64,000 bases of DNA from Candidatus Woesearchaeota archaeon (GTDB lineage: Archaea > Nanobdellota > Nanobdellia > Woesearchaeales > UBA9989): positions 33,489-97,488 of the forward strand of contig DUKZ01000020.1 of NCBI GenBank assembly GCA_013329045.1, read 5' to 3'. The notes under the pieces were generated by a model that worked only from the letters and a program-made list of their open reading frames with translations, did not search any database and was not told the origin of the DNA. Positions 34,111 to 57,003 of this stretch are shown in pieces (position 1 is the first letter of the stretch; every line of letters begins with the position of its first letter). Position numbers and translations under genes: made by a program.

Positions 34111-34192
34111 AGCAACAACAATGGCACAAATCGCGTAGGCTCTACGCGAAGGTTTTCAAAGAAAACCGGTTTGTCGCCAGTATTGTTGTTGC
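34111..34192. repeat. Double-hairpin palindromic element, copy B
   Basis: Outer 11-bp perfect stem GCAACAACAAT/ATTGTTGTTGC, extended imperfectly. Inner hairpins CGCGTAG-gct-CTACGCG and GGTTTT-caaag-AAAACC. Confidence 0.6.
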
Positions 34193-34235
34193 CCAATGAA
34201 ATGAAAGGTAGAGTGAGTCAATAATTAAAGAGGGC

Positions 34236-35219
34236 ATGATGTACAAAAATCTGGCATTGGAATTTGTCCGGGCAACCGAAGCAGCAGCGCTAGCCAGCGC
34301 TAAGTGGATGGGCAAGGGCAATGAGAAGATGGCTGATCACGCAGCAGTTGAGGCAATGAGGAAGCATTTCAACTTCATGGATATTGATGGAACGGTGGTT
34401 ATTGGTGAGGGTGAGCGTGATGAAGCTCCCATGCTCTACATTGGAGAGAAGCTTGGCAACGGAAAAGGGCCAAAAGTTGATATCGCTGTTGATCCATTGG
34501 AAGGAACAACAATTACGGCAAGGGGGGATCCAAACGCAATAACCGTTCTGGCTTCCGCACCAAAGGGCCATTTGCTCCATTCACCGGACACCTATATGGA
34601 CAAGATCGCTGTGGGGAAAGATGCTGTTGGTGTCATTGATCTTGATGCATCAGTAAAAGATAACATTCTCGCTGTCGCAGATAAGCTTGGGAAGGATTGT
34701 GATGAGATAACCGTGATTATTCTTGATCGTGACCGCCATATTGAACTCATCAAGCAGGTGAGGGAGTGTGGCTGCAGGATCAGGCTTATTCGTGATGGTG
34801 ATGTTGCAGGCGCTCTCGCCCCAGCTCTTCCAGACTCTGGTATTGACATTTTGATGGGTATTGGCGGTGCCCCGGAAGGTGTTCTTGGCGCTGCTGGCTT
34901 GAAATGTCTTGGTGGTGAGATTCAAGGAAGGCTCAAGTTCAGGAACCCCTCAGAGAAAGAGCGGGCGATTGGTATGGGGTTGAGCGATCCAGAAAAGATT
35001 TTCACCATGAAGGAGATGGTGGGAGGGGAAGATGTGATGTTTGCAGCAACGGGCGTGACTGACGGCACCATCCTGAAGGGGGTGAGATTTATTCATAACG
35101 GCGCATCGACCCATTCATTGGTGATGCGGTCAGCTTCTGGCACAGTAAGATTCATTGAGGCAAATCATAAGTTTGGAGATGAAAGAGGTGATATCCATGA
35201 AAAAAATGAAAGAAAGTGA
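34236..35219 (+). CDS. glpX: Fructose-1,6-bisphosphatase class II / sedoheptulose-1,7-bisphosphatase (GlpX family)
   Basis: ALEFVRATEAAALASAKWMGKG...DGTVVIGEGERDEAPMLYIGEKLG...DIAVDPLEGTT aligns closely with E. coli GlpX. Confidence 0.85.
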   Translation: MMYKNLALEFVRATEAAALASAKWMGKGNEKMADHAAVEAMRKHFNFMDIDGTVVIGEGERDEAPMLYIGEKLGNGKGPKVDIAVDPLEGTTITARGDPNAITVLASAPKGHLLHSPDTYMDKIAVGKDAVGVIDLDASVKDNILAVADKLGKDCDEITVIILDRDRHIELIKQVRECGCRIRLIRDGDVAGALAPALPDSGIDILMGIGGAPEGVLGAAGLKCLGGEIQGRLKFRNPSEKERAIGMGLSDPEKIFTMKEMVGGEDVMFAATGVTDGTILKGVRFIHNGASTHSLVMRSASGTVRFIEANHKFGDERGDIHEKNERK

Positions 35220-36138
35220 CGTAGGAGTTCCAGGGGATGTTCCAGCAGGTGCAAAGAAAACATACATCAAAAATTTCCTGAAGGTGACCCATAACACTAG
35301 GAGAGTTATGCTGTTTGCGGGCGACCAAAAGATTGAGCATCTCAATGATGATTTTTATGGCACTGTTAAGATGGAAGGAAAAGAAGTGTCGATCTCAAAA
35401 GATGATGCCGATCCAGAGCACCTTTTTAGGATTGCATCAAAGGCAAATATTGGTGTCTTTGCAGGCCAGCTAGGCCTCATCGCCCGGTATGGAAAGTCAT
35501 ACAAGAACATTCCTTACCTGATTAAGCTTAATTCAAAATCCCACTTGGTAAAGACAGAACTCCAGGATCCGTTGAGCAAGGCTTTGTGGGATATTGAGCG
35601 TATTGTAAAATTCAGGAAAGACTCAGGCTTGAATGTTGTTGGTGTTGGCTATACTGTTTATGTTGGCAGCATGTATGAGCCAAAAATGCTCAAGGAGGCA
35701 GCAAGGATCGCTTTTGATGCGCATCAAGCTGGCCTTTTGGCAATTTTCTGGATGTATCCGAGGGGAAAAGCAATTCTTGATGAGAAAGATCCTCATTTGA
35801 TTGCCGGGGCAGCCGGCACAGGTGCCTGTCTTGGTGCTGACTTTGTGAAGGTAAATTATCCAAAGCCAAAGGAAGGAAAAGCCGCAGAATCATTCAAGGA
35901 AGCAGTGCTCGCTGCCGGAAGGACTGGGGTGATTACTGCTGGCGGCTCTTCTAAGCCTCCAAGGGAGTTTTTACAGGAAACTTGGGATCAGATCCACATC
36001 GCTGGCTGTCGGGGAAATGCTACCGGAAGAAATATCCATCAGCGGTCTCTCAGTGAAGCAGTAAAGCTGGCTAATGCCATTGCCTCAATCACGTATGAGG
36101 ACAAGAGTGTTGATGAAGCGATGAAGATGATGGGGTGA
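35197..36138 (+). CDS. fbaB: Class I fructose-bisphosphate aldolase, DhnA/FbaB archaeal type
   Basis: The ATG at 35197 follows GAGGTGAT. YLIKLNSKSHL, VGYTVYVGS, LAIFWMYPRG, GADFVKVNYPK and GRNIHQ blocks. Confidence 0.75.
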   Translation: MKKMKESDVGVPGDVPAGAKKTYIKNFLKVTHNTRRVMLFAGDQKIEHLNDDFYGTVKMEGKEVSISKDDADPEHLFRIASKANIGVFAGQLGLIARYGKSYKNIPYLIKLNSKSHLVKTELQDPLSKALWDIERIVKFRKDSGLNVVGVGYTVYVGSMYEPKMLKEAARIAFDAHQAGLLAIFWMYPRGKAILDEKDPHLIAGAAGTGACLGADFVKVNYPKPKEGKAAESFKEAVLAAGRTGVITAGGSSKPPREFLQETWDQIHIAGCRGNATGRNIHQRSLSEAVKLANAIASITYEDKSVDEAMKMMG

Positions 36139-36169
36139 GATATGTTTTTTCTTTATTTATTATCTTCAG

Positions 36170-36720
36170 CAATGAATGGCCCAATCGGGGCAGAGCCCCG
36201 GGGTATCTCCTCAAAAACTTATGAGCTTTAACTGATTGGGGTCACCGCCTTGCTTCCTAATATATTCTTTCATCTGCTCTTCTCCATAGCCATCGCCAAC
36301 AGTATCAATGTGTCCTCCCTCTGTCCAGAAGTGACCTCCCCACAATTCCTCACGGAGCTTAGGAAACCTCTTGAACGTTTCTTTTGCAGTAATGCTTTTA
36401 CAAATCATCATCACTTGCGATGGAGAGTATCGAGGCGCTGCCTCGACAAGAATATGTAAATGATCCTCATCAGTCCCCATCGCATGAAACTGCAAATAAT
36501 ACCGCTTACCAATGCCAAGTAAGATTTCTTTCAAATATTTGCTCACCTCATCGGTGAGTAAATCCTTACGATACTTGACAACAAATACCACATGATATCG
36601 GATGCGATAACTACAATAAGAAGCATAACGCACTTCCATAAAAAGAAAAAAAGCGTCATGTATTCATAAAATGAGAGGCACTACGGGGCAGAGCCCCGGG
36701 GTATTTACCCAAATAGGAAT
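36170..36720. mobile_element. IS200/IS605-family element (tnpA only), with the same hairpin motif at both ends
   Basis: CGGGGCAGAGCCCCGGGGTAT at 36186-36206 and 36684-36704, in direct orientation. They flank a Y1-transposase gene. Confidence 0.65.
36211..36639 (-). CDS. tnpA: IS200-like HUH/Y1 transposase
   Basis: YHVVFVVKYRK...HLHILVEAAPRYSPSQV is the classical IS200 TnpA pattern. 142 aa. Confidence 0.85.
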   Translation of the reverse strand: MEVRYASYCSYRIRYHVVFVVKYRKDLLTDEVSKYLKEILLGIGKRYYLQFHAMGTDEDHLHILVEAAPRYSPSQVMMICKSITAKETFKRFPKLREELWGGHFWTEGGHIDTVGDGYGEEQMKEYIRKQGGDPNQLKLISF

Positions 36721-36758
36721 AAACAACCTTTTTAAACCCCACCGCTCTTCATCCTTGT

Positions 36759-37439
36759 ATGAAACTTTCCATCATCATCCCCGCCTACAACGAGGAGAAA
36801 TTCATCAAGAAAGTTGTGGGCATCGTAAAAAAAGTTGATTTGGGAAAAATCGAGAAGGAAATCATCATCGTCAATGACGCTTCAAAGGATAACACAGGTA
36901 ATATTATCCAAAAAATCAAAGGGGTAAAGATTCTGAACCACAAGGTAAATCAAGGCAAGGGCGCGGCCATCAGGACTGGCCTCCAGCATGCGACAGGCGA
37001 CATCGTCCTCATCCAGGACGCTGATCTCGAATACGACCCGAACGAATACCCAAAATTAATTCAGCCAATTATCCAGGGTCATGCTGATATTGTCTATGGC
37101 TCAAGGTTCACAGCATCGCACAATCCCAAATACAGATTGTATTATCTTGGTAATAAGTTTCTCACTCTTCTCACCAATATCCTCTACGGCGCAAGAATTA
37201 CTGACATGGAAACCTGTTATAAAGTGATGAAAAAGGATGTCATCAAGGGGATGAAGTTGAGGGCAAATAGGTTTGATTTCGAGCCGGAAATTACCGCAAA
37301 ACTCCTCAAACAAAAAAAGAAGATTATAGAAGTCCCAATCACCTATCACTGCCGTGATTTTGCTGAAGGAAAAAAGATCACGTGGAAAGACGGCATGCTC
37401 GCTGTTTGGTATTTGATAAAATATAGGTTTGTTGATTAG
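36759..37439 (+). CDS. GT2 glycosyltransferase (DPM1-like)
   Basis: LSIIIPAYNEE...IVNDASKDNT...DADLEYDP motifs. Confidence 0.8.
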   Translation: MKLSIIIPAYNEEKFIKKVVGIVKKVDLGKIEKEIIIVNDASKDNTGNIIQKIKGVKILNHKVNQGKGAAIRTGLQHATGDIVLIQDADLEYDPNEYPKLIQPIIQGHADIVYGSRFTASHNPKYRLYYLGNKFLTLLTNILYGARITDMETCYKVMKKDVIKGMKLRANRFDFEPEITAKLLKQKKKIIEVPITYHCRDFAEGKKITWKDGMLAVWYLIKYRFVD

Positions 37440-37442
37440 AAT

Positions 37443-37560
37443 CAGAAATCCGCTGCTCAACACTAACCCCGACCTGAAGGTAGGGGTATGACGTGCCTCG
37501 CTTCTACACGCGGATTTCTGGTGTAGAATTGGGCACTCGCCCTAAAGGGCGGGGTATGAC
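37443..37560. repeat. Cluster of hairpins: 11-bp inverted repeat CAGAAATCCGC/GCGGATTTCTG enclosing hairpin CCCCGACC..GGTAGGGG, plus hairpin CGCCC-TAAA-GGGCG. Each inner hairpin is followed by GGGGTATGAC
   Basis: Seen directly. The GGGGTAT tail is shared with the IS200 end motif. An alternative pairing is TTCTACAC/GTGTAGAA (37503-37528). It lies in the convergent gap between GT2 and the methyltransferase. Confidence 0.5.
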
Positions 37561-37590
37561 ACCCAATTCAACAATCAAAAAGTTATGTTT

Positions 37591-38250
37591 TCACTTCTTC
37601 GCCACAACCACAAAGTCCCCCCATAAGTTCCGTGCGGGAAAACTGACCTTTACAGAATGGAAATGCTCTCCGACAATGCTCCTTAGTTTTCCCTTCGTCC
37701 AGGGGCGGGTGATCTCGCCGGGGTATGCATCAAACTTTTTCCCGATGATTCGCACAAGCAAGCCAAATCCCCGCAGTATCGTGCCATTGAGGCTGAACAT
37801 TGGCGGCCAGAACGTATAGAAACCCCCGCCTTTCTTGAGCACGCGTGCGCACTCGCTCATGAGCTGGTGGATTTCTTCTTCAGTAAAATGCTCATACAAT
37901 CCATGGTTCCATATCCCGTCAAGTGATTCATCCTTAAAGGGCAGCCGGAAAGCATCCCCTTTCACGCGCACATCAAATTGCTTGATTGCATGGGACTGCT
38001 TGAGGGCATCAAAAGAAATGTCAAGGGCAATAAGAGTCCGGTTCTTTTTTCGAATAAGAGTAGATGCCTGTGCCGTGCCGCAGCCAACTTCACAATAGAT
38101 TCCATCAGGTTTGGGAAATGCTTTCTCAAACACCCGCCGGTGCGTTGGGGCAATCACATGTTTTCTGTAATATTGGACAGCGCTTTCATAGAATGTTCCT
38201 TTCATCCCAACATAATGGCTTTCCCAGTCCTGCTCCACTTCTTTTGGCAT
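37591..38250 (-). CDS. Class I SAM-dependent methyltransferase
   Basis: YCEVGCGTAQ motif I. ALDIS and LKKGG motifs. The ORF is open to 38376, but the upstream part overlaps the structured element. The ATG at 38250 (MPKEVEQ) is preferred, weakly. Confidence 0.65.
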   Translation of the reverse strand: MPKEVEQDWESHYVGMKGTFYESAVQYYRKHVIAPTHRRVFEKAFPKPDGIYCEVGCGTAQASTLIRKKNRTLIALDISFDALKQSHAIKQFDVRVKGDAFRLPFKDESLDGIWNHGLYEHFTEEEIHQLMSECARVLKKGGGFYTFWPPMFSLNGTILRGFGLLVRIIGKKFDAYPGEITRPWTKGKLRSIVGEHFHSVKVSFPARNLWGDFVVVAKK

Positions 38251-38366
38251 AAGAGAAGAAAAAAGAACGGTGTTTTTAAGGGTTTTGTTCAAAGAGGGCG
38301 AAAAGAAAAAGGCAATGGGCAAATGGTACTGGAAGATGCAGCACCATAACTGGCAGGCAGAACAAG

Positions 38367-38452
38367 TTGGCAACAATACTGCGCAAACGGCCTAGTTTCT
38401 AGGCTGAGCCTTGCGGAGCAAGGCGGTTTGCTGCCATTGGTATTGTTGCCAA
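38367..38452. repeat. Double-hairpin palindromic element, copy A (inverted relative to copy B)
   Basis: Outer 13-bp perfect stem TTGGCAACAATAC/GTATTGTTGCCAA with imperfect extension. Inner hairpins CCTAG-ttt-CTAGG and GCCTTGC-gga-GCAAGGC. Confidence 0.6.
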
Positions 38453-38547
38453 ACACAAATTCACAGAATACTTCCCTTTAATGTGCGAGTAACCTTATAA
38501 TAAGAACTTTTTTAAAGAAAAACAATATCGACGTCAGTGGGGGAAAG

Positions 38548-40878
38548 ATGTGTCTCAAAAGGATTAAGGGTGTATGGAAAGAGCATTGGATTCCAATTAG
38601 TATCTTAGCTTTGCTCATCATCATCTTTTGTTATCCTTATTTTAGCTCTGATACCATGCCTGTGCGTGCCGGTCCAGGGCTAGGGCTTCCAGCTGGCGAT
38701 GCCCATTACAACGCGGCAAATGCCATGATTGCCCAAAATGCTGCAAGGGAATTTGATCTTCCTCTCTGGAGCCCCTACACGATGTCGGGCACCCCCTTCT
38801 ACGCAAAGCCCCAAGTCCCTTTCTTCTATATCACATATCCGTTATATTTCCTGGCTCCAACCCCCTGGGCATTCCTGAAGTGGAGCCTCATTATCCATCT
38901 TCTGATTGCAGGCATTGCAATGTACTCATTATTCTGGTACATGAGAAAAGACAAGTACGCATCATTCATTGCAGCTCTTTGTTATATGTTCTCAGGCTAC
39001 ATAACGGCTGACTTATTCGGTGGCCATCCAAATATCGTATTCAATTATGCCTGGGTTCCCCTCATAGTCTTATTTTCCATAAAGGCAATGAAAGAGGATC
39101 ACATTAAAAATGCCATTTGGACAGGAATCTTTCTTTCATTGCAGGTGATGGGCGGCGGTCCGGAAATGTTCCTCTACACCCTGCTGTTTGTCGGGATTAT
39201 CTTCCTTTTTTACCTCATCACTTCAGACCCATCAAAGATGCTAAAAAAAGTTCTCATTGCAGGCATCATCATTATTCTTGTCTTCGCCGGCCTCACTGCC
39301 CATAAGTTTCTCCCATTAAAAGAGCTCATGAAAATATCTGTCAGGAACCAGGGTTACAGCATGGAGAACAGCTTGGGTGATCCAACAGAATTCCGTGAGT
39401 TCTGGCATGACCTCGTGAGGCCTGGACCGAGAAATATTGGTTTTATCCCTTTCCTGCTCCTCCTCTTTGCCCTTCCGTTGTGGAAGAAGAAAGACGTCTC
39501 CTTGTTCATGATCATGGCAATTTTTGCTCTCCTCATGCTTTCCGGGTCGTTTGTGTATTTCCTTGTCTGGAAATTTATCCCGTATTATAATAAGATGGAT
39601 GATATCTTTAAGGGAATTTTCCTCTTCATTCTCCCAGCTTGCTATCTTGCAGGTGTTGGAATACAGCAAATCCTCCATCATACAGACAAAAAACTTAAGA
39701 TAAAAAAAGGAGTCATCGTTGGCGTCCTTGCCTTCCTCATCATTCTTGACCTGCTCGTTTTTGTTCCCGATTGGATGGGTTCTGCCGACAGGAAAACCAT
39801 GCAGGAAAACGGCATCATCTACCCAGCAAGATTCGCCCAGAGGACAAGCCCCCCCTATGTCTCTATGCAAGAAACGCTGGAAAGAAATACAATTTTGCAA
39901 AGGATTAGTGAAGACAAGTCATTATATAGGATCCATGTCCAGGAAACAAACGGCATTGATTGGGGAACAGACACAAGCACGATCCCATTGGGGCTCCAGG
40001 ATGTGTATGGGACAGAGAATATTTGGCTCGTGGATTATATGCCAATGTTCCTCAGCGTTGCAAACAGTGATCCGGCTAAATTGTTTGGCATCCTCAACAC
40101 AAAGTATATCACAAGCACCACGCCATTGAATATCTCAGGGTATCGCTTTATTGGAAAAGCCTCTGAATGCGGCCCTCTCTGCCAGCCGATAAAAATTGGC
40201 GGGCCATACTTATACCAAAACGATCTCTGGCTTCCACGATATTACCATGCCCCTAATGCAGTTCTTGTTATCGGGTCAAGGGATAACAAGCTCCAGGCGA
40301 TGTATTTTCTCCTCACCAATCCAAACCTGAATCCTGCAAAGACAATCATCATCTACGGAAAAGATTCTATCAATGAGTACACTCCAGATGACCTGGGCAG
40401 GTTCTCTATGATCCTATTGACCCCGGGGTCAATTGATGAGAAAAGCGGGTTTATCCTGGAGCAATATGCAAAATCAGGGGGGATGCTCATGCCAGACATT
40501 CTCTCTGGAGAACAGCAGATATTTGTAGCAGGGATGGGAGAGGCCCTCCAAAATCTCAGTAGGGAGGGTGGTTTTGAGGAATTGTCTTATTCATTCTCTT
40601 CTGGTTTTGATACCCTCACCCTCGATGTCCATAAGAGTAATGGCTGGGTGTTCCTCTCAGAACAATACAGCATGTATCAAGGATGGGAAGCGAGGGTTGA
40701 TGGAAAGGAAACAGCCATCGAAAGAGCTGATGGTGTTCTTTCAGCAGTATATGTGCCAAAAGGAGCATCATCTCTTGTCATGACATACCATCCAAGATAC
40801 CTGACAGAAGGGATCATCATCTCTCTCATCTCAATAAGTATCATCAGTGGAGCATTATTCTATGGAAAAAAAGAATAG
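38548..40878 (+). CDS. Large polytopic membrane protein with a C-terminal extracytoplasmic domain; YfhO-like / GT-C-fold glycosyltransferase candidate
   Basis: 776 aa. About 12 TM helices in the N-terminal 450 aa, then a soluble domain and a terminal TM. The architecture resembles YfhO. Confidence 0.45.
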   Translation: MCLKRIKGVWKEHWIPISILALLIIIFCYPYFSSDTMPVRAGPGLGLPAGDAHYNAANAMIAQNAAREFDLPLWSPYTMSGTPFYAKPQVPFFYITYPLYFLAPTPWAFLKWSLIIHLLIAGIAMYSLFWYMRKDKYASFIAALCYMFSGYITADLFGGHPNIVFNYAWVPLIVLFSIKAMKEDHIKNAIWTGIFLSLQVMGGGPEMFLYTLLFVGIIFLFYLITSDPSKMLKKVLIAGIIIILVFAGLTAHKFLPLKELMKISVRNQGYSMENSLGDPTEFREFWHDLVRPGPRNIGFIPFLLLLFALPLWKKKDVSLFMIMAIFALLMLSGSFVYFLVWKFIPYYNKMDDIFKGIFLFILPACYLAGVGIQQILHHTDKKLKIKKGVIVGVLAFLIILDLLVFVPDWMGSADRKTMQENGIIYPARFAQRTSPPYVSMQETLERNTILQRISEDKSLYRIHVQETNGIDWGTDTSTIPLGLQDVYGTENIWLVDYMPMFLSVANSDPAKLFGILNTKYITSTTPLNISGYRFIGKASECGPLCQPIKIGGPYLYQNDLWLPRYYHAPNAVLVIGSRDNKLQAMYFLLTNPNLNPAKTIIIYGKDSINEYTPDDLGRFSMILLTPGSIDEKSGFILEQYAKSGGMLMPDILSGEQQIFVAGMGEALQNLSREGGFEELSYSFSSGFDTLTLDVHKSNGWVFLSEQYSMYQGWEARVDGKETAIERADGVLSAVYVPKGASSLVMTYHPRYLTEGIIISLISISIISGALFYGKKE

Positions 40879-42511: not shown

Positions 42512-42869
42512 GGACATAAAGAATCTGGGAGGGCTAGTAACCATAGCAGTAGTCATTGTTCAAGTGTTCTTTAGCAAGACAAACATCTTGATAACCGCAA
42601 GGCTTGTTATTTCTCTCGTATGGATTTCCCTCATTCCAGGGTATGGTCTTTTGCTGACATGGCGAGAGAGGCTGACCTTCTTGGAGTATAGTGTTCTTGC
42701 AGCATTTGTTGGTGCCTCAGTAACAGGAATCCTCAGTTATCACCTGGGCCTCATTGGAGTTAATTTGTCATCACAACCAATCCTTCTTCCGTTAATCTTA
42801 TTAATGATTGGCATTGCCATCGAGTGGAAGGTGAAAAAACATGAAACCGCAAACCCATCTCACCGTTAG
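42489..42869 (+). CDS. Small hypothetical membrane protein
   Basis: 126 aa with 3-4 TM helices. Overlaps its neighbours. Confidence 0.4.
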   Translation: MNQKSLLEDIKNLGGLVTIAVVIVQVFFSKTNILITARLVISLVWISLIPGYGLLLTWRERLTFLEYSVLAAFVGASVTGILSYHLGLIGVNLSSQPILLPLILLMIGIAIEWKVKKHETANPSHR

Positions 42870-47723: not shown

Positions 47724-48274
47724 AACAAGAGACTATTGGTAGCTCAGATATCATATTTTATATTGCTTTCGTTATTTATGGTCAATTTTTAGCATCATAC
47801 CAAACAATAACGACACCATTGTCTAATGATCAGGTGGTATTAAATTTAATAATGAGTCTACTTGTTAGCGTTTTAATACTTTATTTTACCCGACTAAATC
47901 CCATTAGAAAATATTTTAAAGGTATCAGATCACGACAAGTATTGTTTATCTCAATCATCTTGATTATAACATGTATTTTTCTGTTTTCATCGGTCTTCTC
48001 TTCAAAGAGAGTGTTAGATAACACTGTCGTTCAGATTCAAGAAAAAATTTATAGAGAACAGAGTTTCACGAATAAGATAACAGTTAGTCTTATGATAAGC
48101 TCCTTCTTATATTCAATTATATTTGCTTTTCAGCTATCAAAGAAATTTGATGAAAGAATCGACATTAATCTAACATATATCTATTGGTTTACCTTATTTT
48201 TTGTTCAATTTTTAATGATGCACACAATCGCATTGATAATAAGTGGACTTAGAAACATGGGGTTTGGATTATGA
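47720..48274 (+). CDS. Hypothetical polytopic membrane protein (AT-rich)
   Basis: 184 aa with 5-6 hydrophobic helices. ATGA overlap with the subtilase gene. Confidence 0.4.
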   Translation: MKQETIGSSDIIFYIAFVIYGQFLASYQTITTPLSNDQVVLNLIMSLLVSVLILYFTRLNPIRKYFKGIRSRQVLFISIILIITCIFLFSSVFSSKRVLDNTVVQIQEKIYREQSFTNKITVSLMISSFLYSIIFAFQLSKKFDERIDINLTYIYWFTLFFVQFLMMHTIALIISGLRNMGFGL

Positions 48275-48318
48275 TAGACGGCCATATAATAGAATGTTGG
48301 GATGTTTGGGAGATTGAA

Positions 48319-48439
48319 ATGAATGAAGGGTCTTATACTGACCTTGAGACTAATGATGGTTGTGGTTCTTCTTGCTGTGATTATACTTATCAAAGCCAGG
48401 TCGATTATTATTGGTCAATTTTAGCGAGGGGTACTAAAT
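48319..48439 (+). CDS. Small ORF (40 aa) that is a diverged duplicate of a subtilase C-terminal segment
   Basis: tatactgaccttgagactaatgatggttgtgg is identical at 46893-46924 and 48338-48369. MNEGSYTDLETNDGCGSSCCDYTYQSQVDYYW parallels YTDLETNDGCGSQCPNYTYDDLVDFYW. ATGA overlap with the next gene. Confidence 0.3.
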
Positions 48440-51400: not shown

Positions 51401-51824
51401 AATAGATGAGGTGAGTGGTGGTACTGCAGCCTGGGGGTGGTATGATTCTGAAACTACAACTGCCTCAAGAAGGCCATACCTTACTATTGATTATGAAGTA
51501 ACACCTGAGGAGAATCAATCCCGTATCAAGAATGAAGGCAATAGCCCTCTTTCAATATACCTTCTTATGAAAATGCAGTTTTTTAATGAGTCAGCGCAGC
51601 AGTGGGTGGATGTAATGACTACGTACTCTTCAAATAGTACAATATCATTAGAACCAGGAGAGATTATAAAATTAGATGAAAACTGGACACTTTGGAATAC
51701 ATCTACCATAAACTATGGATCGGGGACGTATCGTGCTTTTGTAGACGCTCATGATTCCTATGACAGTATTATTTATAACAACGAGGGCAATCCATATGAC
51801 TCATATAACTTCTCATTGTCCTAA
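48438..51824 (+). CDS. Very large secreted Asn/Ser/Thr-rich protein, dense in N-x-S/T sequons, with He_PIG-type Ig-like and a DNRLRE-like region
   Basis: Signal peptide MKTKNLLIVCILLIPFVSAS. Dozens of NxS/NxT sites. SSTGLLSGIPNESNIGNYSIQVSVSDG (He_PIG). VDNQRESILRWNLSSIPPGSTITNASLYM resembles the DNRLRE-domain motif. Confidence 0.7.
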   Translation: MKTKNLLIVCILLIPFVSASLDPLIASYNFDFSSGVLDVTSTSQFLTDSDNNGVNDTLTFNITTAAGPSQEYTFLISLFEGTDLVQNYSVMNVSTIYPSAQVSFPTIQLVRAKYNYSLMVYDGNSLVYMDYASETIPFGDVERGNSIDFLSDAPLGDTGIQLNVTFNVSVNQTENITAFLSLGNYSTEVISSGNLLTPQSTISLTIDNLTITASHYSGVIIIDAIKVGEKVYFTNYSTVAYNYEDFAQYSYIQSVTTSQVDINDNNLSEVVQLNLTVQADSGGIYTLSSSLFDPEKELLIYAEINVTLTTGQNQVFLNFSGEKVYSSYQYGDFTIPLIELSKNGQSIDSYPFGITLTDLIYTEFEPPDLPDLQVNLSTHLDLSSNITFINITVSNNGSAPAFNIFLDVFDDSNFSYTLVQDSLNSSEQKLFNLTKPFYYTNNNIMVIVDMENIVDESYEENNIIDNFVGNHQPIALPSQHPSYFSCTVYTPCVFYCDYSDEDNDTRDTTIIKWFINDELALTNYSVNGIYELYLDPFYYKKGDTLKFECQHWDQHLLASQKENFSVYINNSLPFITTNISIMQLYVDQNFTFDFNASDPDVEDGIDILVWSQNLSFMSLNSSTGLLSGIPNESNIGNYSIQVSVSDGDDIDYKNISVWVSYPPNITMNIKSLQDDFSIGDVVGITDPPSISSKTNEVATCVGHKCSLSIFNAGLQMKDTKNKLVDYAQGTRVYPDADDIVIEWSGNTVVLQPFIIKSKKKLPVSDTGFSTNITYERGTYKTVHYIEDYKDIKVFGYDIISSVDCTNNDLELLCGNQVIGFDILEESGFSLDVSPTRVLIYGRNFSIIDPTMQLNYTSDIHDAMVKYNNPDTNYDAANLESSDRVDNQRESILRWNLSSIPPGSTITNASLYMMVRLSSSSDTTYGVRGVGNDSWIESSITWNTKPSYETTPYDTVDTTPFDNGDWMRWNITSLAQESADSDKSLSLAIIDEVSGGTAAWGWYDSETTTASRRPYLTIDYEVTPEENQSRIKNEGNSPLSIYLLMKMQFFNESAQQWVDVMTTYSSNSTISLEPGEIIKLDENWTLWNTSTINYGSGTYRAFVDAHDSYDSIIYNNEGNPYDSYNFSLS

Positions 51825-51848
51825 AATAGTGAAGAGTTAAGGGAAGCC

Positions 51849-51957
51849 GATGAAGCAAAATCAAAAGAAATAATTTTTGGCGTCACTTTTTTTCCAAGGA
51901 GGAAATAATTGGCGATGTGGTCTGGACCGCTATTCCCTTTGATAGAGATGATTTTTG
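51849..51957. repeat. Direct repeat copy 2
   Basis: It contains the remnant ATG AAG CAA AAT CAA AAG AAA TAA and the same SD plus ATGTGGTCTGGACCGCTATTCCCTTTGATAGAGATGATTTTTG. Confidence 0.85.
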
Positions 51958-52189
51958 GTGAGAGGATGGTAAAGTGTGGCAAAAAAAGAGCTTGCAGTTC
52001 CTCTTGTGTCGCATAATAGAAGGTTGTTCCTGTAGGGCTTTGCCTAATTTGGTGTTTGCCTCCCCCATACTCACTGCTATCGATATGAAAGGAAACAGAG
52101 AGGTACTTTCCCTTAGGTAAAAGGAGTTTTGAGTCCCGTTTGATGTGCTCATCCCACCTCTCCCAGGGGTATACAAAATAGAGTGTCCC

Positions 52190-52330
52190 AGCCAGGAAGC
52201 TTGCCTATTCCGACAAGGCGGCCATTATTATTGTTGAGGTTGTTGTTGCTGTTGGCATTGGAATTATTGCTGCCGACAGAGCCAAGCCACACGAGCCGCC
52301 CAGAGTAGCCATTCCACCTTTTTGTATGTC
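52190..52330 (-). pseudogene. Gene fragment paralogous to the C-terminal region of 52578..53342
   Basis: About 70 percent nucleotide identity over about 120 nt. Translated ...GRLVWLGSVGSNNSN...GRLVGIG versus MRLVWLGSVDNYSSD...GRLVGVV. No intact ORF. Confidence 0.5.
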
Positions 52331-52577
52331 ACCACCACTTCATTGCTATTGTGGTTGTATGCGAAAAAATCGAAGATTTTTTGCACACAAGAAATTTTCA
52401 ATTTCTTCGCGTTTTATAACGATATTTCATCATGGTGAAATGACGTGTAGTTCCAAGCTTACTATTGTAAGCTGGGACAATATGTAAGAGATATAATAAT
52501 TTAAAATATTATGGTTTAAGTTGCACTCCTGATGTTGGAACATAAACCTGACCATCATACTCAAATGGTCTTCCAAC

Positions 52578-53342
52578 TTAGAGTGCATCAATTACAGAAT
52601 TATCAAGATCAGATTTCGCTGCCGCAACGCCTCCGGCGCTGATTGCGACTCCGTCGCTAACTACCCCGACAAGGCGGCCAAAATAATAGCTGAGGCCAAG
52701 GTCGCTGCTGGCATCGGAACTATAGTTGTCGACAGAGCCAAGCCACACGAGCCGCATCCCTTCAGAGGTAGAAGGAAATACCCCCATACAGTCTTTTACT
52801 GATCCTCCTCTTGCTTCTTGAACAAGAGCAAGGGTTTCATCAAACAGATCGTCAGCATTATCCTCCCCTCGAAAGGCGAATTCCTTCCAAAATGCCTCAC
52901 GCCTCTCTGGAAGAGCATATCTGGTATTCCTTAATGCTGCAACTTCATCTTGGGTGAATATATACACACCATCCGATTCCCGGAAAGTTTCATAAACATC
53001 AGCATCAACGGGGAGTGACCAATTGACTAATTGATCAGTTGAACGAAGAGAATGTACTAAATCACGTCCCTGCTTATTTTCGTATGGAACAGCGAGCATG
53101 CTTCCGTCACTTCCAACAATAAACATGTCTGCAGTGGTGAAGTAATTATCACGGAATCGCTGTCTGTCAAAATGAACAGCTGCAGCATCGGATTCATCAA
53201 CATCACGAACACGCGCAATGAGAAAATCATAGAGAGTCATTGGTGTTCTGTTTTCACCTAACAGCACAGATATCTGTTCGACCGGTTCGCCTGGGAAAAG
53301 TTTATACAATGAAAGACTTTCTGTAAGTTTTTGTTGAAACAT
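52578..53342 (-). CDS. Hypothetical cytoplasmic protein
   Basis: ATG at 53342 with AGGTG 9 nt upstream. 254 aa. No recognised motif. Confidence 0.5.
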   Translation of the reverse strand: MFQQKLTESLSLYKLFPGEPVEQISVLLGENRTPMTLYDFLIARVRDVDESDAAAVHFDRQRFRDNYFTTADMFIVGSDGSMLAVPYENKQGRDLVHSLRSTDQLVNWSLPVDADVYETFRESDGVYIFTQDEVAALRNTRYALPERREAFWKEFAFRGEDNADDLFDETLALVQEARGGSVKDCMGVFPSTSEGMRLVWLGSVDNYSSDASSDLGLSYYFGRLVGVVSDGVAISAGGVAAAKSDLDNSVIDAL

Positions 53343-53439
53343 AGTGAGCACCTGCTTATTGGAGACAAGTAATAATTACCCATATATAAACCTTTCGCAT
53401 TAATTACTACTCTTAAGTAAGAATAAATTTGATCTTTAA

Positions 53440-53617
53440 TGTTTATAAAAACATGACAACCGCCACCTTTCCAGCATGCTCGCCCCCCCCGAAAATCGAA
53501 AAGATCTGTACGAGACCCTCTGTTCTTATACCGCTCTTCTGCTTCTTTTGGAGGGAACCCTCTTGTCCATACTGCGCCTGGCTTTTCATAGATGGATTCA
53601 AAGAGTTCTTTGCTCAT
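53440..53617 (-). CDS. Small ORF (about 45-58 aa) translationally coupled (ATGA) to the upstream gene; contains a G8 homopolymer near its 3' end
   Basis: MSKELFESIYEKPGAVWTRGFPPKEAEERYKNRGSRTDLFDF... All three frames terminate within about 20 codons after the poly-G. The annotated 119-aa continuation reads through the next promoter region and is unlikely to be real. Confidence 0.3.
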
Positions 53618-53991
53618 GATGTTTTCTCTTTCTTATGAGAAGATTGGTAAGAGATGTGCACAAAATAAGCTGCTATGGCAAGAATCACAAAGCAAACCAC
53701 AAGTGCCTGCCACAATCCGATGTAGGCTCCAGCATAAAATGCGAAGGTGGGAATTACTCCAAGCCCAAGGAAAACGGAAATAATGATCCGTTCTATCTTC
53801 TCGAGCATCGGGAGCATGTAATAGAAGGGAACGATATAGAAAATACTAAATCCAAGGACTGTCCGAAGCCCTGTAAGGTGGAACTTCAAGAGGAAGAAAA
53901 GACCAATGATGCCGATCAATGCCCATGATAATTTTTTATCTTTCAAGTTTGTACACCCGTATATTCTCTTGATTATAGAGCAGCGTGTCAT
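53614..53991 (-). CDS. Small membrane protein
   Basis: Hydrophobic 125-aa ORF. Its 5' part overlaps the end of 53936..55492, so the real start may be internal (MLPMLEK...). Confidence 0.35.
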   Translation of the reverse strand: MTRCSIIKRIYGCTNLKDKKLSWALIGIIGLFFLLKFHLTGLRTVLGFSIFYIVPFYYMLPMLEKIERIIISVFLGLGVIPTFAFYAGAYIGLWQALVVCFVILAIAAYFVHISYQSSHKKEKTS

Positions 53992-55492
53992 TCTGGAGGG
54001 TTTGTTGTTCCCACCCTATCAGCTGCTGGGCTACATCCTGCCGTCCAAGCATGACAAGCTGGGAATAGTCCACAACAACATACGAGCTCAAATTCGCGAA
54101 TTCATGCTCTGTTCCGATAAGGTTGCTGTCATATGCAGCGCTTCGCTGTGCCAGGATATACATCCATTTCTTCACGGGATACACAGCAGTTCCGGCAGAC
54201 AAGTAAACAGCATCCTCTGGAATGTTCATTTGAAGATAGTTCATGGCATCATATTCCGCTGGATTTACCCGGGATAAGGGATCATTTGCAGATTGCAGTC
54301 TGGCGAGTGCCGGTTGTGCATTCCATACCCAGAACATCCCGGCAAAGAGGAGTATGATAATACCAGTTACCACTCTCCTTTCTGCTGACACGAGTGATGA
54401 GATAAAGGTGATCAAAAACATGATTCCCAGCACGATCAGGGGATAGAACAGGTGGGACTCGGCTGCAAGCATCCGATGGGTTCGATAATCAAGGATGCCA
54501 AACAGTTTGAGGTGGAACAGGATATACAAGGACAGCATCCAGGAGAGCATGAGGAGGTGCTTTGTGTCCCGTTTCATGAAAAGAAACACAACCCCAAGAA
54601 GGATAAAAGGAATCAGCCAATACCCATACATATCCTTGAAAGAAAAGTAGGTTTCTGGGGTTCCATGGAAATTATCCTGTGGGATGAACCAAGAGAAGAA
54701 TCCTCCAACGTTTGAGAGTCCAAGCTTGATGCCTGCTTGTTGTTCGGAGAGTTCCCCTGTATACTTGAGCGTCGGGAGGAAGAGGACAAGAAAGATTACC
54801 CCTGCAACCGCAATATGTATCCAGTCAAATGGCATCTTGCGCTCTTTGATGATCATTACAAGACTAAATATTCCAAGTGCAGCGGCGCTGTGCAATAATC
54901 CTTGGGGGTGCTGGAAATACTGGAAGACGCAAAGGAGAGCTGTCAGATAGAGATACACAAGTTTTGGCTTTCCTTCAAAAGCACTGGTAAGATATCGGTA
55001 AGCGGTATAAAGGATTACCGGAAGATAAAAGTAGCTGATCTGTTGTGGCCACTGGCTCCATAAGTACACGTTGATGTCCCGCATCGAAAAAAGGGAAAGG
55101 ATACCGGCAAGAAAGCCAGCCCACATGCCAAATAAATGCCTAATCAGGAGAAAAACAGCAGTCCCGATGAGCATCCCTTCAAATGCTATCAGGAGGTATG
55201 GCCCAATGATCCGCTCCCCGCTGATGATCTGCAGCAAAGCAATGTTATGGTGGTATTGCGGCGGGTACCAGATTTTGTGATTATTCACATGCCCTTTTGC
55301 CCGGTCAAGGTAGGGGGGAAGCGTCTCGACAGGCATATTCGTCGTTCCTGCATAGTCCCCAATGCCAAAATGCGTGGCAGCATCCACATCTCCAAAGGGC
55401 ATGTCATTGACGGGGATAAGGTACATGCTCATACCGATAAGAAGAAGGGCAAAGAGCAAGAGCAGTTCAATGTGGTGTTTTGCCAGCTTCAT
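53936..55492 (-). CDS. GT-C-like polytopic membrane protein (ArnT/PMT/GT39-GT83-like candidate) with a C-terminal soluble domain
   Basis: 518 aa, about 11 TM helices. The C-terminus is AVYLSAG...YVVVDYSQL...IRVYKL, paralogous in pattern to 40847 and 58968. 4-nt overlap with the GT9 gene. Confidence 0.5.
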   Translation of the reverse strand: MKLAKHHIELLLLFALLLIGMSMYLIPVNDMPFGDVDAATHFGIGDYAGTTNMPVETLPPYLDRAKGHVNNHKIWYPPQYHHNIALLQIISGERIIGPYLLIAFEGMLIGTAVFLLIRHLFGMWAGFLAGILSLFSMRDINVYLWSQWPQQISYFYLPVILYTAYRYLTSAFEGKPKLVYLYLTALLCVFQYFQHPQGLLHSAAALGIFSLVMIIKERKMPFDWIHIAVAGVIFLVLFLPTLKYTGELSEQQAGIKLGLSNVGGFFSWFIPQDNFHGTPETYFSFKDMYGYWLIPFILLGVVFLFMKRDTKHLLMLSWMLSLYILFHLKLFGILDYRTHRMLAAESHLFYPLIVLGIMFLITFISSLVSAERRVVTGIIILLFAGMFWVWNAQPALARLQSANDPLSRVNPAEYDAMNYLQMNIPEDAVYLSAGTAVYPVKKWMYILAQRSAAYDSNLIGTEHEFANLSSYVVVDYSQLVMLGRQDVAQQLIGWEQQTLQNDTLLYNQENIRVYKLER

Positions 55493-56748
55493 TGTCTTTT
55501 TGTTCCTTGTTTCTGATGATGGGAAGCCTGATGATGGATATTCTCGAGCTGTTCCTCAACGATCTTATACACGTATTCAACAGATATTGATTTCAAGCAT
55601 TCATTAGACCCGCAGAGTGTCTTTCGGTGATTAAATGCTGAGACGCAAGGAGAGCACGCAAATTGGGAATCAATAATCACTGCAGTATCACTGATTGGCC
55701 CATACAGTTTTGGCGTTTCTGGCCCAAAAAAAGCTATGATGTTTATTGGGGTGAGCGGGGCAAAATGAACCGGCCCTGAATCATTAGTAATGAGCAGATG
55801 ACAGCTGTTATAGATATCTATCAATTCCCGAAAGCTTGTTTTGTTGACAAGGTTGATGCAATGCTCCTCGCCAACAGTCTCAATGATCACTTCAGCATCA
55901 TGTGCTGCATCCTTCACCCCGGTAATGACAAAGAGCACGTCTTTATGGTGGGTAAGGATTTTTTTGCAGAGCGCTGCATACGATTCAAGCGGCCATGCCC
56001 GTATCGGCAATAACCCTGCATTGGAATTAATGATGATGAGGATGTGTTTTTTTGTGAGTGCTGGATTGCAGGACAGCATTTTTTCCCAGATTGCATCAAG
56101 CTTTTCTTTGCTAGAGGAGATCCGGGGGATATGGAGTTCTTTTTCGCTGATATGCCTTTTTGTAAGAGGCCATTCCCCATCAGGGGATTTGAGCGCATAC
56201 ACGAGGGATAAGAAATTCACTCCAACGTGGCGATGGGGGTTATAGCTAACCTTGTGGGTTTGCATATTTCCCCGGTATAATCCTTCCATTGTGTGCTGAT
56301 AAAACCCAACCCTGTTGGAGGCTCCAGAAAGATAAGAGATGATTGCTGTCACCCGGGAGAATAATTCAAGATCAATGATTGTATCAATGCCTTCTTTCTT
56401 CATCCGGATGAGGGCTTTGAAGACGGTAATCTTGAAGCGAAAGAGGGAGGAATTATCAATGAGGATGAGGTTTTTTTCAGGAATAATTTCGAGCAGTTTA
56501 ACGCTTTCCTGGTTCTGCTTAAAGATCATGAAATACAGTTCAGATGAAGGCCAAAGTTCTTTTGTCTTGCTCATCGCTGCATATGCAAGGACAGTGCTTC
56601 CCATCTCAGAAAGTTCCAGAAAAAGTACCTTTTTTGGCTCCTTTTTTTTTCTTGGAAACACCCGCCCAAGGATATGCAGGCAACTCAGTGAAAAGCAAAG
56701 AGGATTACCAATCCAATAATCCATTTTCCTCATGAAATCTACTTTCAT
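55489..56748 (-). CDS. GT9 family glycosyltransferase (heptosyltransferase-like)
   Basis: ITNDSGPVHFAPLTPINIIAFFGPETP and N-terminal KKVLFLELSEMGSTVL motifs. Confidence 0.75.
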   Translation of the reverse strand: MKVDFMRKMDYWIGNPLCFSLSCLHILGRVFPRKKKEPKKVLFLELSEMGSTVLAYAAMSKTKELWPSSELYFMIFKQNQESVKLLEIIPEKNLILIDNSSLFRFKITVFKALIRMKKEGIDTIIDLELFSRVTAIISYLSGASNRVGFYQHTMEGLYRGNMQTHKVSYNPHRHVGVNFLSLVYALKSPDGEWPLTKRHISEKELHIPRISSSKEKLDAIWEKMLSCNPALTKKHILIIINSNAGLLPIRAWPLESYAALCKKILTHHKDVLFVITGVKDAAHDAEVIIETVGEEHCINLVNKTSFRELIDIYNSCHLLITNDSGPVHFAPLTPINIIAFFGPETPKLYGPISDTAVIIDSQFACSPCVSAFNHRKTLCGSNECLKSISVEYVYKIVEEQLENIHHQASHHQKQGTKRQ

Positions 56749-56836
56749 TGTTTCCCCCTAGGAGGATAGACTTGTTTTCTGTTTATATGTCTTTCGACAA
56801 AAATGTTCTCGTGAAAAACAAAGAGGAAATGAGCAA

Positions 56837-56916
56837 CATCACCACTGGCGCAGATGGCCAAGTCTCTTGGCCAAGGTTTCTGTAAGAAACCGGTCTGCCT
56901 GCCAGTTGTGGTGATG
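56837..56916. repeat. Double-hairpin palindromic element, copy C
   Basis: Outer arms CATCACCACTGGCGCAGAT / GGTCTGCCTGCCAGTTGTGGTGATG. Inner hairpins GGCCAAG-tct-CTTGGCC and GGTTTC-tgtaa-GAAACC. It lies in the divergent promoter region between the GT9 and methyltransferase genes. Confidence 0.55.
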
Positions 56917-57003
56917 TTGCTGACCTTGAATCACACAATTTACTCAGCTCCATAAAGGAGGCATGACCAAACCTTTTTATATGGGCCACCTCCCCCTTCT
57001 CCC

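What the first reader, a model, noticed from the sequence alone, without database searches (positions are those of the whole stretch)
34111..56916. Family of about 80-90-nt double-hairpin palindromic elements in intergenic spacers (copies at 34111..34192, 38367..38452 and 56837..56916; a weaker fourth at 9221..9300)
Each copy has a long imperfect outer stem whose arms are related between copies (GCAACAA(CAA)TACTGGCGACAAAC / CACCACAACTGGCAGGCAGAC). The outer stem encloses two short perfect hairpins: a 5-7-bp stem with a 3-nt loop, then a 6-7-bp stem with a 3-5-nt loop. The inner hairpin sequences differ completely between copies, but their geometry is preserved. This is compensatory variation expected for a structured RNA or a hairpin-recognised mobile element (MITE-like), not for random palindromes. 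Copies A and B are in opposite orientation and bracket the sugar-phosphate and IS region. Copy C sits in a divergent promoter region. The weaker fourth copy overlaps the stop codon of the giant adhesin gene.
Basis: seen in the sequence. Interest (0 to 1): 0.7.

Follow-up and report, generated by a model that had tools for sequence, protein, structure and literature searches.

The report
T-shaped palindromic repeats in a Woesearchaeon
Three ~85-base intergenic repeats in this DPANN archaeal genome, plus one in a second Woesearchaeota genome, fold into the same T-shaped double hairpin kept by paired mutations; they match no described family and most likely act as folded-DNA protein-recognition sites, though their function is unproven.

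Summary
The core observation holds. Three homologous ~85-nt elements (34111-34193, 38368-38451, 56832-56921) share one fold: an 8-14-bp outer stem starting GCAAC/GTTGC, a loop on the 3' arm only, a TGGC/GCCA helix, a 1-2-nt pyrimidine bulge on the 3' arm, a GCARA/TYTGC helix, then two perfect hairpins with 3-nt loops.

A fourth true copy lies in an unrelated Woesearchaeota MAG (L003). Across the four copies, 17 of 35 pairs carry compensatory double changes. Only one change is one-sided and only two pairs are G.U.

The "fourth copy" at 9221-9300 is not a member. All three copies are on the + strand; the inverted feature near B is a truncated 3'-arm relic at 38338-38366. The inner hairpins are related between copies, not completely different.

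The host is a DPANN archaeon. The elements sit upstream of TATA-like boxes, have no T-run, no consistent target duplications and no Rfam match. They fail the tests for REP/RAYT, MITE, IS200 ends and canonical attC.

Best reading (about 0.4): DNA-level palindromes that fold as single strands or cruciforms and are recognised by an unidentified structure-specific protein. This resembles attC or REP sites but is not membership. An RNA role is less likely. Copy number appears low and function is unproven.

The parts
34111..34193 (+). Copy A. Outer stem GCAACAACAAT/ATTGTTGTTGC, 3'-arm loop AGT, GGC/GCC helix, C bulge, ACAAA/TTTGT helix. Hairpin 1 is TCGCGTAG-GCT-CTACGCGA, then a single A, then hairpin 2 GGTTTTC-AAA-GAAAACC, then GG. 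It lies 36 nt after the TAL/FSA stop codon (34075) and 44 nt before the glpX ORF start (34236). A TATA-like ATAATTAAAG sits between the element and glpX.
   Evidence: (93.8 bits on +). Identical in all sampled strains.
38368..38451 (+). Copy B. Outer stem (TT)GGCAACAATAC/GTATTGTTGCC(AA), 3'-arm loop ATTG, short GC/GC helix (the 5' arm lacks one G), T bulge, GCAAAC/GTTTGC helix. Hairpin 1 is GGCCTAG-TTT-CTAGGC, then TGA, then hairpin 2 GCCTTGC-GGA-GCAAGGC. It lies in the divergent spacer between a methyltransferase gene (-, start about 38250) and a YfhO-like gene (+, 38548). TATA-like CCTTATAATAAG is at about 38493.
   Evidence: (93.9 bits on +).
56832..56921 (+). Copy C. 14-bp outer stem AGCAACATCACCAC/GTGGTGATGTTGCT, loop GTT, TGGC/GCCA helix, CT bulge, GCAGA/TCTGC helix. 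Hairpin 1 is TGGCCAAG-TCT-CTTGGCCA, then A, then hairpin 2 GGTTTCT-GTA-AGAAACC, then GG. It lies between divergent GT9 (-, 55489-56748) and methyltransferase (+, 57004-57855) genes.
   Evidence: I6; 100.4 bits on +.
38338..38366 (-). Truncated relic consisting of a 3' arm only, in inverted orientation. Read on the - strand it is GTTCTGCCTGCCAGTTATGGTGCTGC, 19 of 20 identical to copy C's 3' arm over the BLAST match. Its inner end lies about 5 nt from the outer end of copy B. Similarity to the copy C region stops at the arm, so it is not a segmental duplication.
   Evidence: exact TCTGCCTGCCAGT at 38349-38361 on -; E 6.5e-4.

Best explanation
These are members of a small, previously undescribed family of DNA-level palindromic intergenic elements of Woesearchaeota (DPANN archaea). 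Their functional form is most likely folded DNA: a single strand exposed during replication or transfer, or an extruded cruciform. It adopts a T/Y-shaped three-way junction.

The conserved part is the long asymmetric stem. It has a terminal GCAAC/GTTGC box and an inner TGGC-GCARA / TYTGC-(Y1-2)-GCCA box, and every extra-helical base lies on one arm. This stem is inferred to be the recognition module for a structure- and strand-specific DNA enzyme, such as a tyrosine recombinase or an HUH/Y1-type nuclease or transposase. The one-sided bulges would tell that protein which strand and orientation it is on.

The two capping hairpins act as a geometry-constrained but sequence-free terminal structure. 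This is the same division of labour as the R/L boxes, extra-helical bases and variable terminal structure of integron attC sites, or the REP hairpins used by RAYTs.

The family has spread to non-homologous intergenic sites in at least two lineages and decays into 3'-arm relics.

Shown: the fold, its covariation, the conserved asymmetry, the dispersal and the relics. Inferred: DNA rather than RNA as the active form, the existence of a protein partner, and any mobility or recombination activity.
For: 1. Structure under constraint. With only 4 distinct copies, 17 of 35 pairs show changes on both sides and 96.4% of cells are paired. 0 of 500 shuffles reach this, and slid-partner controls give 30-52% paired with 1-2 double changes.
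2. DNA-type signature. There are 21 double (Watson-Crick to Watson-Crick) changes against 1 one-sided change, and only 2 G.U among about 133 pairs. Both strands fold equally well. All hairpin loops are triloops, and DNA-parameter z-scores reach -10.7.
3. Conserved asymmetry. The loop and the pyrimidine bulge are always on the 3' arm. The + strand scores 94-100 bits and the - strand 29-32 bits. The L003 copy has the same layout.
4. Sequence conservation is confined to the arms. The only conserved unpaired positions are the junction A and GG.
5. Dispersal to unrelated sites: TAL-glpX, MTase-YfhO and GT9-MTase spacers in the window, and the rpsJ-DUF4346 spacer in a Zodletone Woesearchaeota MAG.
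6. Truncated 3'-arm relics abut full copies in both genomes, indicating turnover.
7. TATA-like boxes lie between each element and the downstream start codon (read directly). B and C are in divergent spacers, so a shared position inside transcripts is unlikely.
8. No Rfam family matches, even at E up to 10.
Against: - No partner enzyme was found. The only mobile-element gene in about 83 kb is an IS200 transposase with its own, unrelated end hairpins.
- No integrase was found.
- Copy number looks low: 3 in about 83 kb, all within 23 kb. Strict-pattern scans of GTDB genomes, JGI metagenomes and IMG/VR gave only one further true copy.
- Copies are about 75% identical, so there has been no recent burst.
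- There is no consistent target duplication.
- There is no presence/absence or sequence polymorphism among more than 20 contigs of the population, which are all 99.9-100% identical.
- All copies have a same-strand gene 44-96 nt downstream, which would also fit a cis-regulatory role.
- Template-switch 'palindrome correction' could keep the hairpins perfect without selection.
Confidence: 0.4

Rival explanations
1. Selfish or neutral palindromic repeat. An old MITE/REP-like element spread in the past and is now decaying, with no current host function. The perfect hairpins are kept by replication template-switching (quasi-palindrome correction) rather than by selection.
For: - Copies are dispersed in intergenic DNA of two lineages.
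- Relics of arms lie next to full copies.
- Copies are diverged at about 75% identity.
- Paired changes are exclusively Watson-Crick, as template switching would give.
- There is no associated gene.
Against: - Template switching should also erase the bulges and the one-sided loop, yet these are conserved in position and strand in all four copies.
- The central segment is 36 nt in all three window copies, which were found without any length filter.
- The arm boxes are conserved between two distant genomes.
- There is no consistent TSD and no high copy number.
Confidence: 0.25
2. Structured RNA element. It would be transcribed from the + strand as a cis-acting stabiliser, processing signal or regulator of the downstream gene, or as a small non-coding RNA.
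For: - Covariation is strong and RNA folds are stable.
- Every copy has a same-strand gene starting 44-96 nt downstream.
- Copy A and the L003 copy lie between co-directional genes.
- The strand asymmetry is conserved.
Against: - G.U pairs and one-sided changes are almost absent: 2 of about 133 pairs and 1 against 21.
- Loops are triloops, and no conserved single-stranded nucleotides are available for ligand or protein contacts.
- B and C are in divergent spacers, and TATA-like boxes lie downstream of all copies, so they would not be in the 5' UTR.
- No T-run follows the element.
- There is no Rfam match.
- There are no orthologous copies in relatives.
Confidence: 0.2
3. True cassette recombination sites. 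The elements would be a divergent archaeal attC-type site marking the 3' ends of gene blocks in a glycosylation/sugar-metabolism island, recombined by an integron-like integrase encoded elsewhere in the genome.
For: - The stem has two boxes, one-sided extra-helical bases and a variable terminal structure.
- The terminal box contains the AAC/GTT triplet.
- All three copies are in direct orientation within 23 kb of variable surface-glycosylation genes.
- Integrons and attC clusters are reported in Nanoarchaeota (PMC9668308).
- Copy A sits where gene order differs from relatives. In relatives glpX is divergently adjacent to an NTP-transferase gene; here it follows TAL.
Against: - The canonical R''/R' consensus (RYYYAAC/GTTRRRY) is not met.
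- The stem between the boxes is paired and longer than in attC.
- The 'cassettes' would be 4-18 kb, multi-gene, of mixed orientation, with their own promoters and core metabolic genes.
- There is no integrase in about 83 kb.
- The L003 copy is a singleton next to rpsJ.
- There is no rearrangement polymorphism in the population.
- No similar sequence occurs in the archaeal attC supplementary data that are held as text.
- The NTP-transferase 'orthology' is weak at 32% identity.
Confidence: 0.1
4. Double-stranded operator or upstream activating site. The two arms would be inverted binding sites for a transcription factor controlling sugar-phosphate and glycosylation genes.
For: - All copies and both relics place a 3' arm 30-90 nt upstream of a TATA-like box or start codon.
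- The relics keep exactly the promoter-proximal arm.
Against: - A duplex operator needs neither two perfectly paired internal hairpins nor compensatory changes within them.
- The arm spacing is unequal between the two halves.
- The downstream genes are functionally unrelated: glpX, a YfhO-like gene, a methyltransferase and a DUF4346 gene.
Confidence: 0.05

Closest known systems
Integron attC sites (folded bottom-strand recombination sites recognised by IntI)
   Same: - Imperfect palindrome of similar size, believed to act as a folded single strand.
- Two conserved paired boxes separated by a spacer.
- Extra-helical bases on one strand only, which would give strand and orientation choice.
- A terminal structure free in sequence and sometimes branched.
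- An AAC/GTT triplet in the terminal box.
- Copies in one orientation.
   Different: - The terminal box is RGCAAC/GTTGCY, not RYYYAAC/GTTRRRY.
- The inter-box segment is 6-9 bp paired plus a 3-5-nt one-sided loop, not a 5/6-nt unpaired spacer.
- The terminal structure is a fixed-length (36 nt) pair of triloop hairpins.
- There are no short promoterless cassettes, no array and no integrase nearby.
REP / REPIN elements mobilised by RAYT (Y1 HUH) transposases
   Same: - Short intergenic imperfect palindromes with bulges.
- Recognised as hairpins by an HUH enzyme.
- Structure conserved by compensatory change.
- An IS200-superfamily Y1 gene lies in the neighbourhood.
   Different: - The Y1 gene here is a standard IS200 transposase (NF033573 124 bits; RAYT model 19 bits against a cut-off of 80).
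- It is flanked by its own unrelated hairpins in direct orientation.
- There is no GTAG-type 5' tetranucleotide.
- Copy number is low.
- The shape is a three-way junction rather than a simple or doublet hairpin.
- The host is an archaeon.
MITEs and other bacterial or archaeal palindromic repeats (ERIC, Correia, RUP, Sulfolobus SM elements)
   Same: Small, non-coding, intergenic, with terminal inverted repeats that can form a long hairpin, dispersed and decaying.
   Different: - No consistent target-site duplication.
- No parent IS with the same ends.
- Copies are old and divergent, yet each is internally perfectly paired.
- The asymmetry is conserved.
T-shaped inverted terminal repeats of dependoparvoviruses (AAV ITR), substrates of the HUH Rep protein
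   Same: The geometry matches: a long stem capped by two short palindromes (7-9 bp) with 3-nt loops, separated by a single unpaired base. This comparison rests on my own knowledge and was not tested here.
   Different: - Not at the end of a linear genome.
- No tetranucleotide Rep-binding repeats.
- No Rep gene.
- Chromosomal, in an archaeon. The resemblance is of shape only.

Membership tests
Integron attC site | R'' = RYYYAAC and R' = GTTRRRY core sites at the base of the stem | tested here: not met
   The ends read [A/T/G/G]RGCAAC and GTTGC[C/T]N in all four copies. Only the AAC/GTT triplet and one flanking position fit.
Integron attC site | Second paired box (L''/L') with extra-helical bases on one strand and a variable terminal structure | tested here: met
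   TGGC-GCARA / TYTGC-(C, T or CT)-GCCA with the bulge always on the 3' arm. The terminal hairpins vary in sequence. This is an analogy of architecture; the spacing differs from attC.
Integron attC site | Arrays of short, mostly promoterless single-gene cassettes, or an IntI gene nearby | tested here: not met
   Spacings are 4.2 and 18.4 kb with multi-gene, mixed-strand content. There is no tyrosine recombinase in the window or in +/-10 kb extensions. The L003 copy is a singleton.
REP/REPIN-RAYT system | Association with a REP-associated tyrosine transposase flanked by inverted REPs | tested here: not met
   The only Y1 gene scores 123.9 bits to IS200 (NF033573) and 19.4 bits to REP_Tyr_transpos, whose cut-off is 80. 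Its flanks carry an unrelated 21-nt hairpin motif in direct orientation.
REP/REPIN-RAYT system | Tens to hundreds of copies per genome | tested here: inconclusive
   There are 3 copies in about 83 kb of this organism. Strict-pattern scans found no others, but these collections did not return the window's own copies either, so coverage of this genome is uncertain.
MITE | Terminal inverted repeats plus a target-site duplication of fixed length | tested here: not met
   The outer stem could serve as TIRs. Flanks show no consistent direct repeat: TGA/TGA at C only, an offset TGAA at A, and none at B or L003.
MITE | Near-identical copies and insertion polymorphism | tested here: not met
   Copies are about 75% identical. 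All population contigs are 99.9-100% identical with every copy present.
IS200/IS605 end-derived element (PATE) | Hairpins matching the left and right end hairpins of a resident IS200/IS605 element | tested here: not met
   The resident IS end motif CGGGGCAGAGCCCCGGGGTAT occurs only at the IS ends and is unrelated to the element.
Intrinsic (Rho-independent-like) terminator | GC-rich hairpin followed by a T-run at the 3' end of a gene | tested here: not met
   No T-run follows the elements. Scan hits are internal fragments at background frequency: 6 found against 4.9 expected, and 1 against 0.7. B and C lie between divergent genes.
Any Rfam RNA family | Covariance-model match | tested here: not met
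   The gathering threshold gives only a tRNA at 3020-3137. E-value mode around copies A and C gives nothing credible.
Parvovirus-type T-shaped terminal hairpin | Terminal position on a linear ssDNA genome, Rep-binding tetranucleotide repeats, and an HUH Rep gene | tested here: not met
   The elements are chromosomal and intergenic. There are no GAGC-type repeats in the stem and no Rep gene in the window. Only the geometry is shared.

The most novel reading that the evidence does not exclude
The elements are the recognition sites of a so-far unknown archaeal system of structure-specific single-stranded-DNA recombination. This would be a DPANN counterpart of attC/IntI or of HUH-processed T-shaped hairpins. 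It would move or reshuffle multi-gene blocks in cell-surface glycosylation and sugar-metabolism islands, with the one-sided bulges setting strand choice.
Probability: 0.12. Interest if true: 0.85.

Novelty: new variant of a known kind. Interest (0 to 1): 0.5.

Why it matters
DPANN archaea are uncultivated, have tiny genomes, and very little is known about their mobile or structured DNA. This element has unusually clean covariation, a conserved strand asymmetry and a T-shaped fold. It would give a concrete handle for finding a structure-specific recombinase, transposase or binding protein in these organisms. If it proved to be a recombination site, it would suggest how their variable surface-glycosylation gene clusters are assembled. 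If it is only a decaying selfish palindrome, it is still a new repeat family useful for annotation and for separating real RNAs from DNA palindromes.

Tried and rejected
- Fourth copy at 9221-9300: rejected. It has no enclosing stem and no model hit.
- A and B as inverted ends of a 4-kb unit: rejected. Both are on the + strand.
- Link to the IS200 element between A and B: rejected. Its end hairpins are unrelated, it is single-copy and fixed, and it is not a RAYT.
- Strict-pattern scans:
  - GTDB genomes gave 1 true hit and 1 chance hit.
  - JGI metagenomes gave 7 chance hits with no structure.
  - IMG/VR gave 0.
- A looser 3'-arm pattern in IMG/VR gave 16 hits. These are two phage gene families without hairpins.
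- BLAST of copy C against plasmids found nothing.
- The attempt to get other parts of the same genome through identical IS200 transposase copies failed. All 24 contigs read are the same locus.
- Extending the window by about 9-10 kb on each side found no new copy.
- Empty-site or orthologous-site tests could not be done:
  - GlpX relatives at 71-75% identity have different neighbours.
  - EF-1alpha relatives of L003 at 83-84% identity also have different neighbours.
  - None of these relatives carries a copy.
- Population variation: none. All contigs are 99.9-100% identical, and the only 'mismatches' were scaffold Ns.
- Segmental duplication as the origin of the relic near B: rejected. The methyltransferases are 20% identical and DNA similarity stops at the arm.
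- Insertion of the SIS-to-TAL block with copy A at its junction remains speculative. The NTP-transferases are only 32% identical and there is no element at the other junction.
- The supplementary files of the archaeal integron paper that are held as text contain no similar arm sequences.
- A literature search found no description of such elements in DPANN.

Full report
**What is in the sequence**

Three of the four claimed loci are real and homologous. Each has five parts:
- an outer stem of 11-14 bp that begins GCAAC and ends GTTGC;
- a 3-5-nt loop present only on the 3' arm;
- a short TGGC/GCCA helix;
- a 1-2-nt pyrimidine bulge, again only on the 3' arm;
- a 5-6-bp GCARA/TYTGC helix that opens into a three-way junction.

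The junction carries two perfect hairpins of 7-8 bp and 7 bp, both with 3-nt loops. They are separated by one A (TGA in copy B) and followed by G or GG.

The distance from GCRCARA to CGGTYTG is exactly 36 nt in all three window copies.

**Is it more than chance?**

- Folds are far more stable than shuffles. RNA z-scores are -5.0 to -8.3. DNA z-scores are -7.0 to -10.7.
- A generic scan for tandem perfect hairpins finds only these three places in 64 kb, against 0.3 expected.
- The shared pattern has 3 matches against 0.00 expected.

- The locus at 9221-9300 is two AT-rich hairpins with no enclosing stem. Neither covariance model detects it.
- All three copies lie on the + strand, scoring 94-100 bits on + against 29-32 bits on -. 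They do not form an inverted pair around the sugar-phosphate/IS region.
- The inverted feature is a truncated 3'-arm relic at 38338-38366 (-). It is 19/20 identical to copy C's arm and lies about 5 nt from copy B. Similarity stops at the arm and the neighbouring methyltransferases are unrelated, so it is not a segmental duplication.
- The inner hairpins are homologous between copies and differ by compensatory swaps, not completely.

**Host**

The window belongs to an uncultivated Woesearchaeota/Nanoarchaeota (DPANN) archaeon:
- GlpX's best named relatives are Candidatus Woesearchaeota.
- An AglB/STT3 oligosaccharyltransferase is present.
- The only tRNA hit spans 118 nt for a 71-position model, which implies an intron.

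The same population occurs in many groundwater metagenomes and in two NCBI MAGs. All those contigs are 99.9-100% identical to the window, so they carry no variation.

**More copies elsewhere**

- A strict pattern scan of GTDB species genomes gave one further true member. It lies in a Zodletone Woesearchaeota MAG (L003 5056-4971, -). It has the same architecture, including features the pattern did not require: the outer 5' arm and two perfect triloop hairpins. It scores 57 bits with model R1 and 77 bits with R2.
- That copy lies between rpsJ (S10, downstream of EF-1alpha) and a DUF4346 gene. A 5'-truncated copy that keeps a full 3' arm follows it 23 nt downstream.
- The JGI metagenome and IMG/VR scans gave only chance matches.
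- No copies occur in about 19 kb beyond the window ends.
- No copies occur in about 110 kb of fetched relatives' loci, much of it the same locus from different samples.
- Caveat: the genome and metagenome scans did not return the window's own copies. Those collections evidently lack or mask this region, and I do not know how much of the rest of the genome they contain.

**Covariation**

On the four distinct copies:

| Measure | Observed | Controls |
|---|---|---|
| Cells forming a standard pair | 96.4% (35 pairs) | 30-52% with slid partners |
| Pairs with changes on both sides | 17 (21 cells) | 1-2 with slid partners |
| One-sided changes | 1 | - |
| G.U pairs | 2 | - |
| Shuffles reaching the observed values | 0 of 500 | - |

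The alignment was fitted to the model, and four sequences are few. Even so, the signal is very strong.

The near absence of wobble pairs and one-sided changes is what a DNA palindrome shows, not a typical RNA. So are the triloops, the equal foldability of both strands, and the lack of conserved single-stranded nucleotides.

**Context**

- Copy A lies between co-directional TAL/FSA and glpX.
- Copies B and C lie between divergent genes.
- In every case a TATA-like box lies between the element and the downstream start codon, read directly. The elements are therefore upstream of promoters rather than in leaders.
- No T-run follows them.
- Flanks show no consistent target duplication.
- The IS200 element between A and B has its own unrelated end hairpins, is a standard IS200 rather than a RAYT, and is single-copy.
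- No integrase or Rep gene is present in the window or its extensions.
- There is no Rfam match and no plasmid match.

**Interpretation**

The best-supported reading (about 0.4) is a small family of DNA-level palindromic elements whose active form is folded DNA. The conserved asymmetric stem would be the recognition module of an unidentified structure-specific protein. The hairpin pair would be a geometry-constrained cap.

This works like integron attC sites or REP hairpins. It fails the defining tests for those families and for MITEs, IS200-end derivatives and terminators.

Rivals:

| Rival | Weight | Main weakness |
|---|---|---|
| Decaying selfish palindrome kept perfect by template switching | 0.25 | Does not explain the conserved bulges |
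| Cis-acting or small RNA | 0.2 | Disfavoured by the substitution pattern and by position |
| Genuine cassette recombination sites of a divergent integron-like system | 0.1 | Attractive architecture, wrong consensus and context |
| Duplex operator | 0.05 | Does not explain the hairpin covariation |

Gene order around glpX differs from that in relatives, and copy A sits at that junction. The supporting orthology is weak, so I treat this as a lead only.

**Novelty and score**

No description of such elements in DPANN was found. I rate it as a new variant of a known kind: structured palindromic intergenic DNA repeats. Interest is 0.5. The family is real, cleanly structured and unexplained. But it is low-copy and has no partner gene, no polymorphism and no expression data.

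Noticed in passing
window 36170-36710: Compact IS200-type insertion sequence. It carries a 142-aa Y1 transposase gene (36211-36639, -) and the identical 21-nt hairpin motif CGGGGCAGAGCCCCGGGGTAT in direct orientation at 36186-36206 and 36684-36704. It lies between the DeoC-type aldolase and GT2 genes. All 24 contigs read (of 28 index blocks) place it at this same locus.
   Followed up: yes
window 9238-9288: Two AT-rich tandem hairpins: a 10-bp stem with a 3-nt loop, and an 8-bp stem with an 8-nt loop. They sit in the spacer after the 2225-aa Ig-repeat adhesin gene (stop at 9271-9273), and the second overlaps the stop codon. They are not related to the element family and may mark a 3'-end or termination region.
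   Followed up: partly
window 3020-3137: Rfam tRNA hit spanning 118 nt for a 71-position model, which implies an intron. ARAGORN in bacterial mode finds no tRNA. This fits an archaeal genome.
   Followed up: partly
L003 1000-1179: Another tandem pair of perfect triloop hairpins (ATTGAGC-TTT-GCTCAAT, GCT, CAAACTCT-GTA-AGAGTTTG at 1108-1146) without the family's arms. It lies inside a 154-bp stretch flanked by a 13-bp direct repeat GAACGCCACGACC (1000-1012 and 1167-1179), beside an intron-containing tRNA (850-944, -). It could be an unannotated RNA gene or another element.
   Followed up: partly
L003 5060-5175 (- strand): Directly upstream of the L003 copy, a 12-bp A/T stem (AATTTTTTTCAT / ATGAAAAAAATT) encloses about 85 nt with short GC hairpins such as GGGGG-CAA-CCCCC. 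This is a second enclosing-palindrome structure after rpsJ.
   Followed up: no
window 52215-52252: Intergenic stretch GCCATTATTATTGTTGAGGTTGTTGTTGCTG that resembles the family's 3' arm (16 nt at 94% to the L003 arm, E 0.14). It could be a further degenerate relic or only a TTG-rich low-complexity run.
   Followed up: partly
L025 1-1528 and L029 1-1064 (breakpoint at window 37581): In two strain contigs the sequence departs from the window at 37581, at the 3' ends of the GT2 and methyltransferase genes. It continues into ORFs of 163 aa (faint HTH_38) and 261 aa. This is probably an IS insertion polymorphism and is the only structural variation seen in the population.
   Followed up: no
window 26784-34236 versus L012, L016, L060, L061: In GlpX relatives (71-75% identity) glpX is divergently adjacent to an NTP-transferase gene and followed by class I aldolase and GAPDH genes. 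In this organism a SIS-HldE-SIS-transketolase-RpiB-Rpe-TAL block lies between an NTP-transferase gene (only 32% identical) and glpX, and a DeoC/LacD-type aldolase follows glpX. Copy A sits at the TAL/glpX junction.
   Followed up: partly
window 60618-61222: Small two-gene pair (88 aa and 113 aa) whose second product weakly matches ParE/YoeB toxins. It is a probable toxin-antitoxin module inside the glycosylation gene cluster.
   Followed up: no
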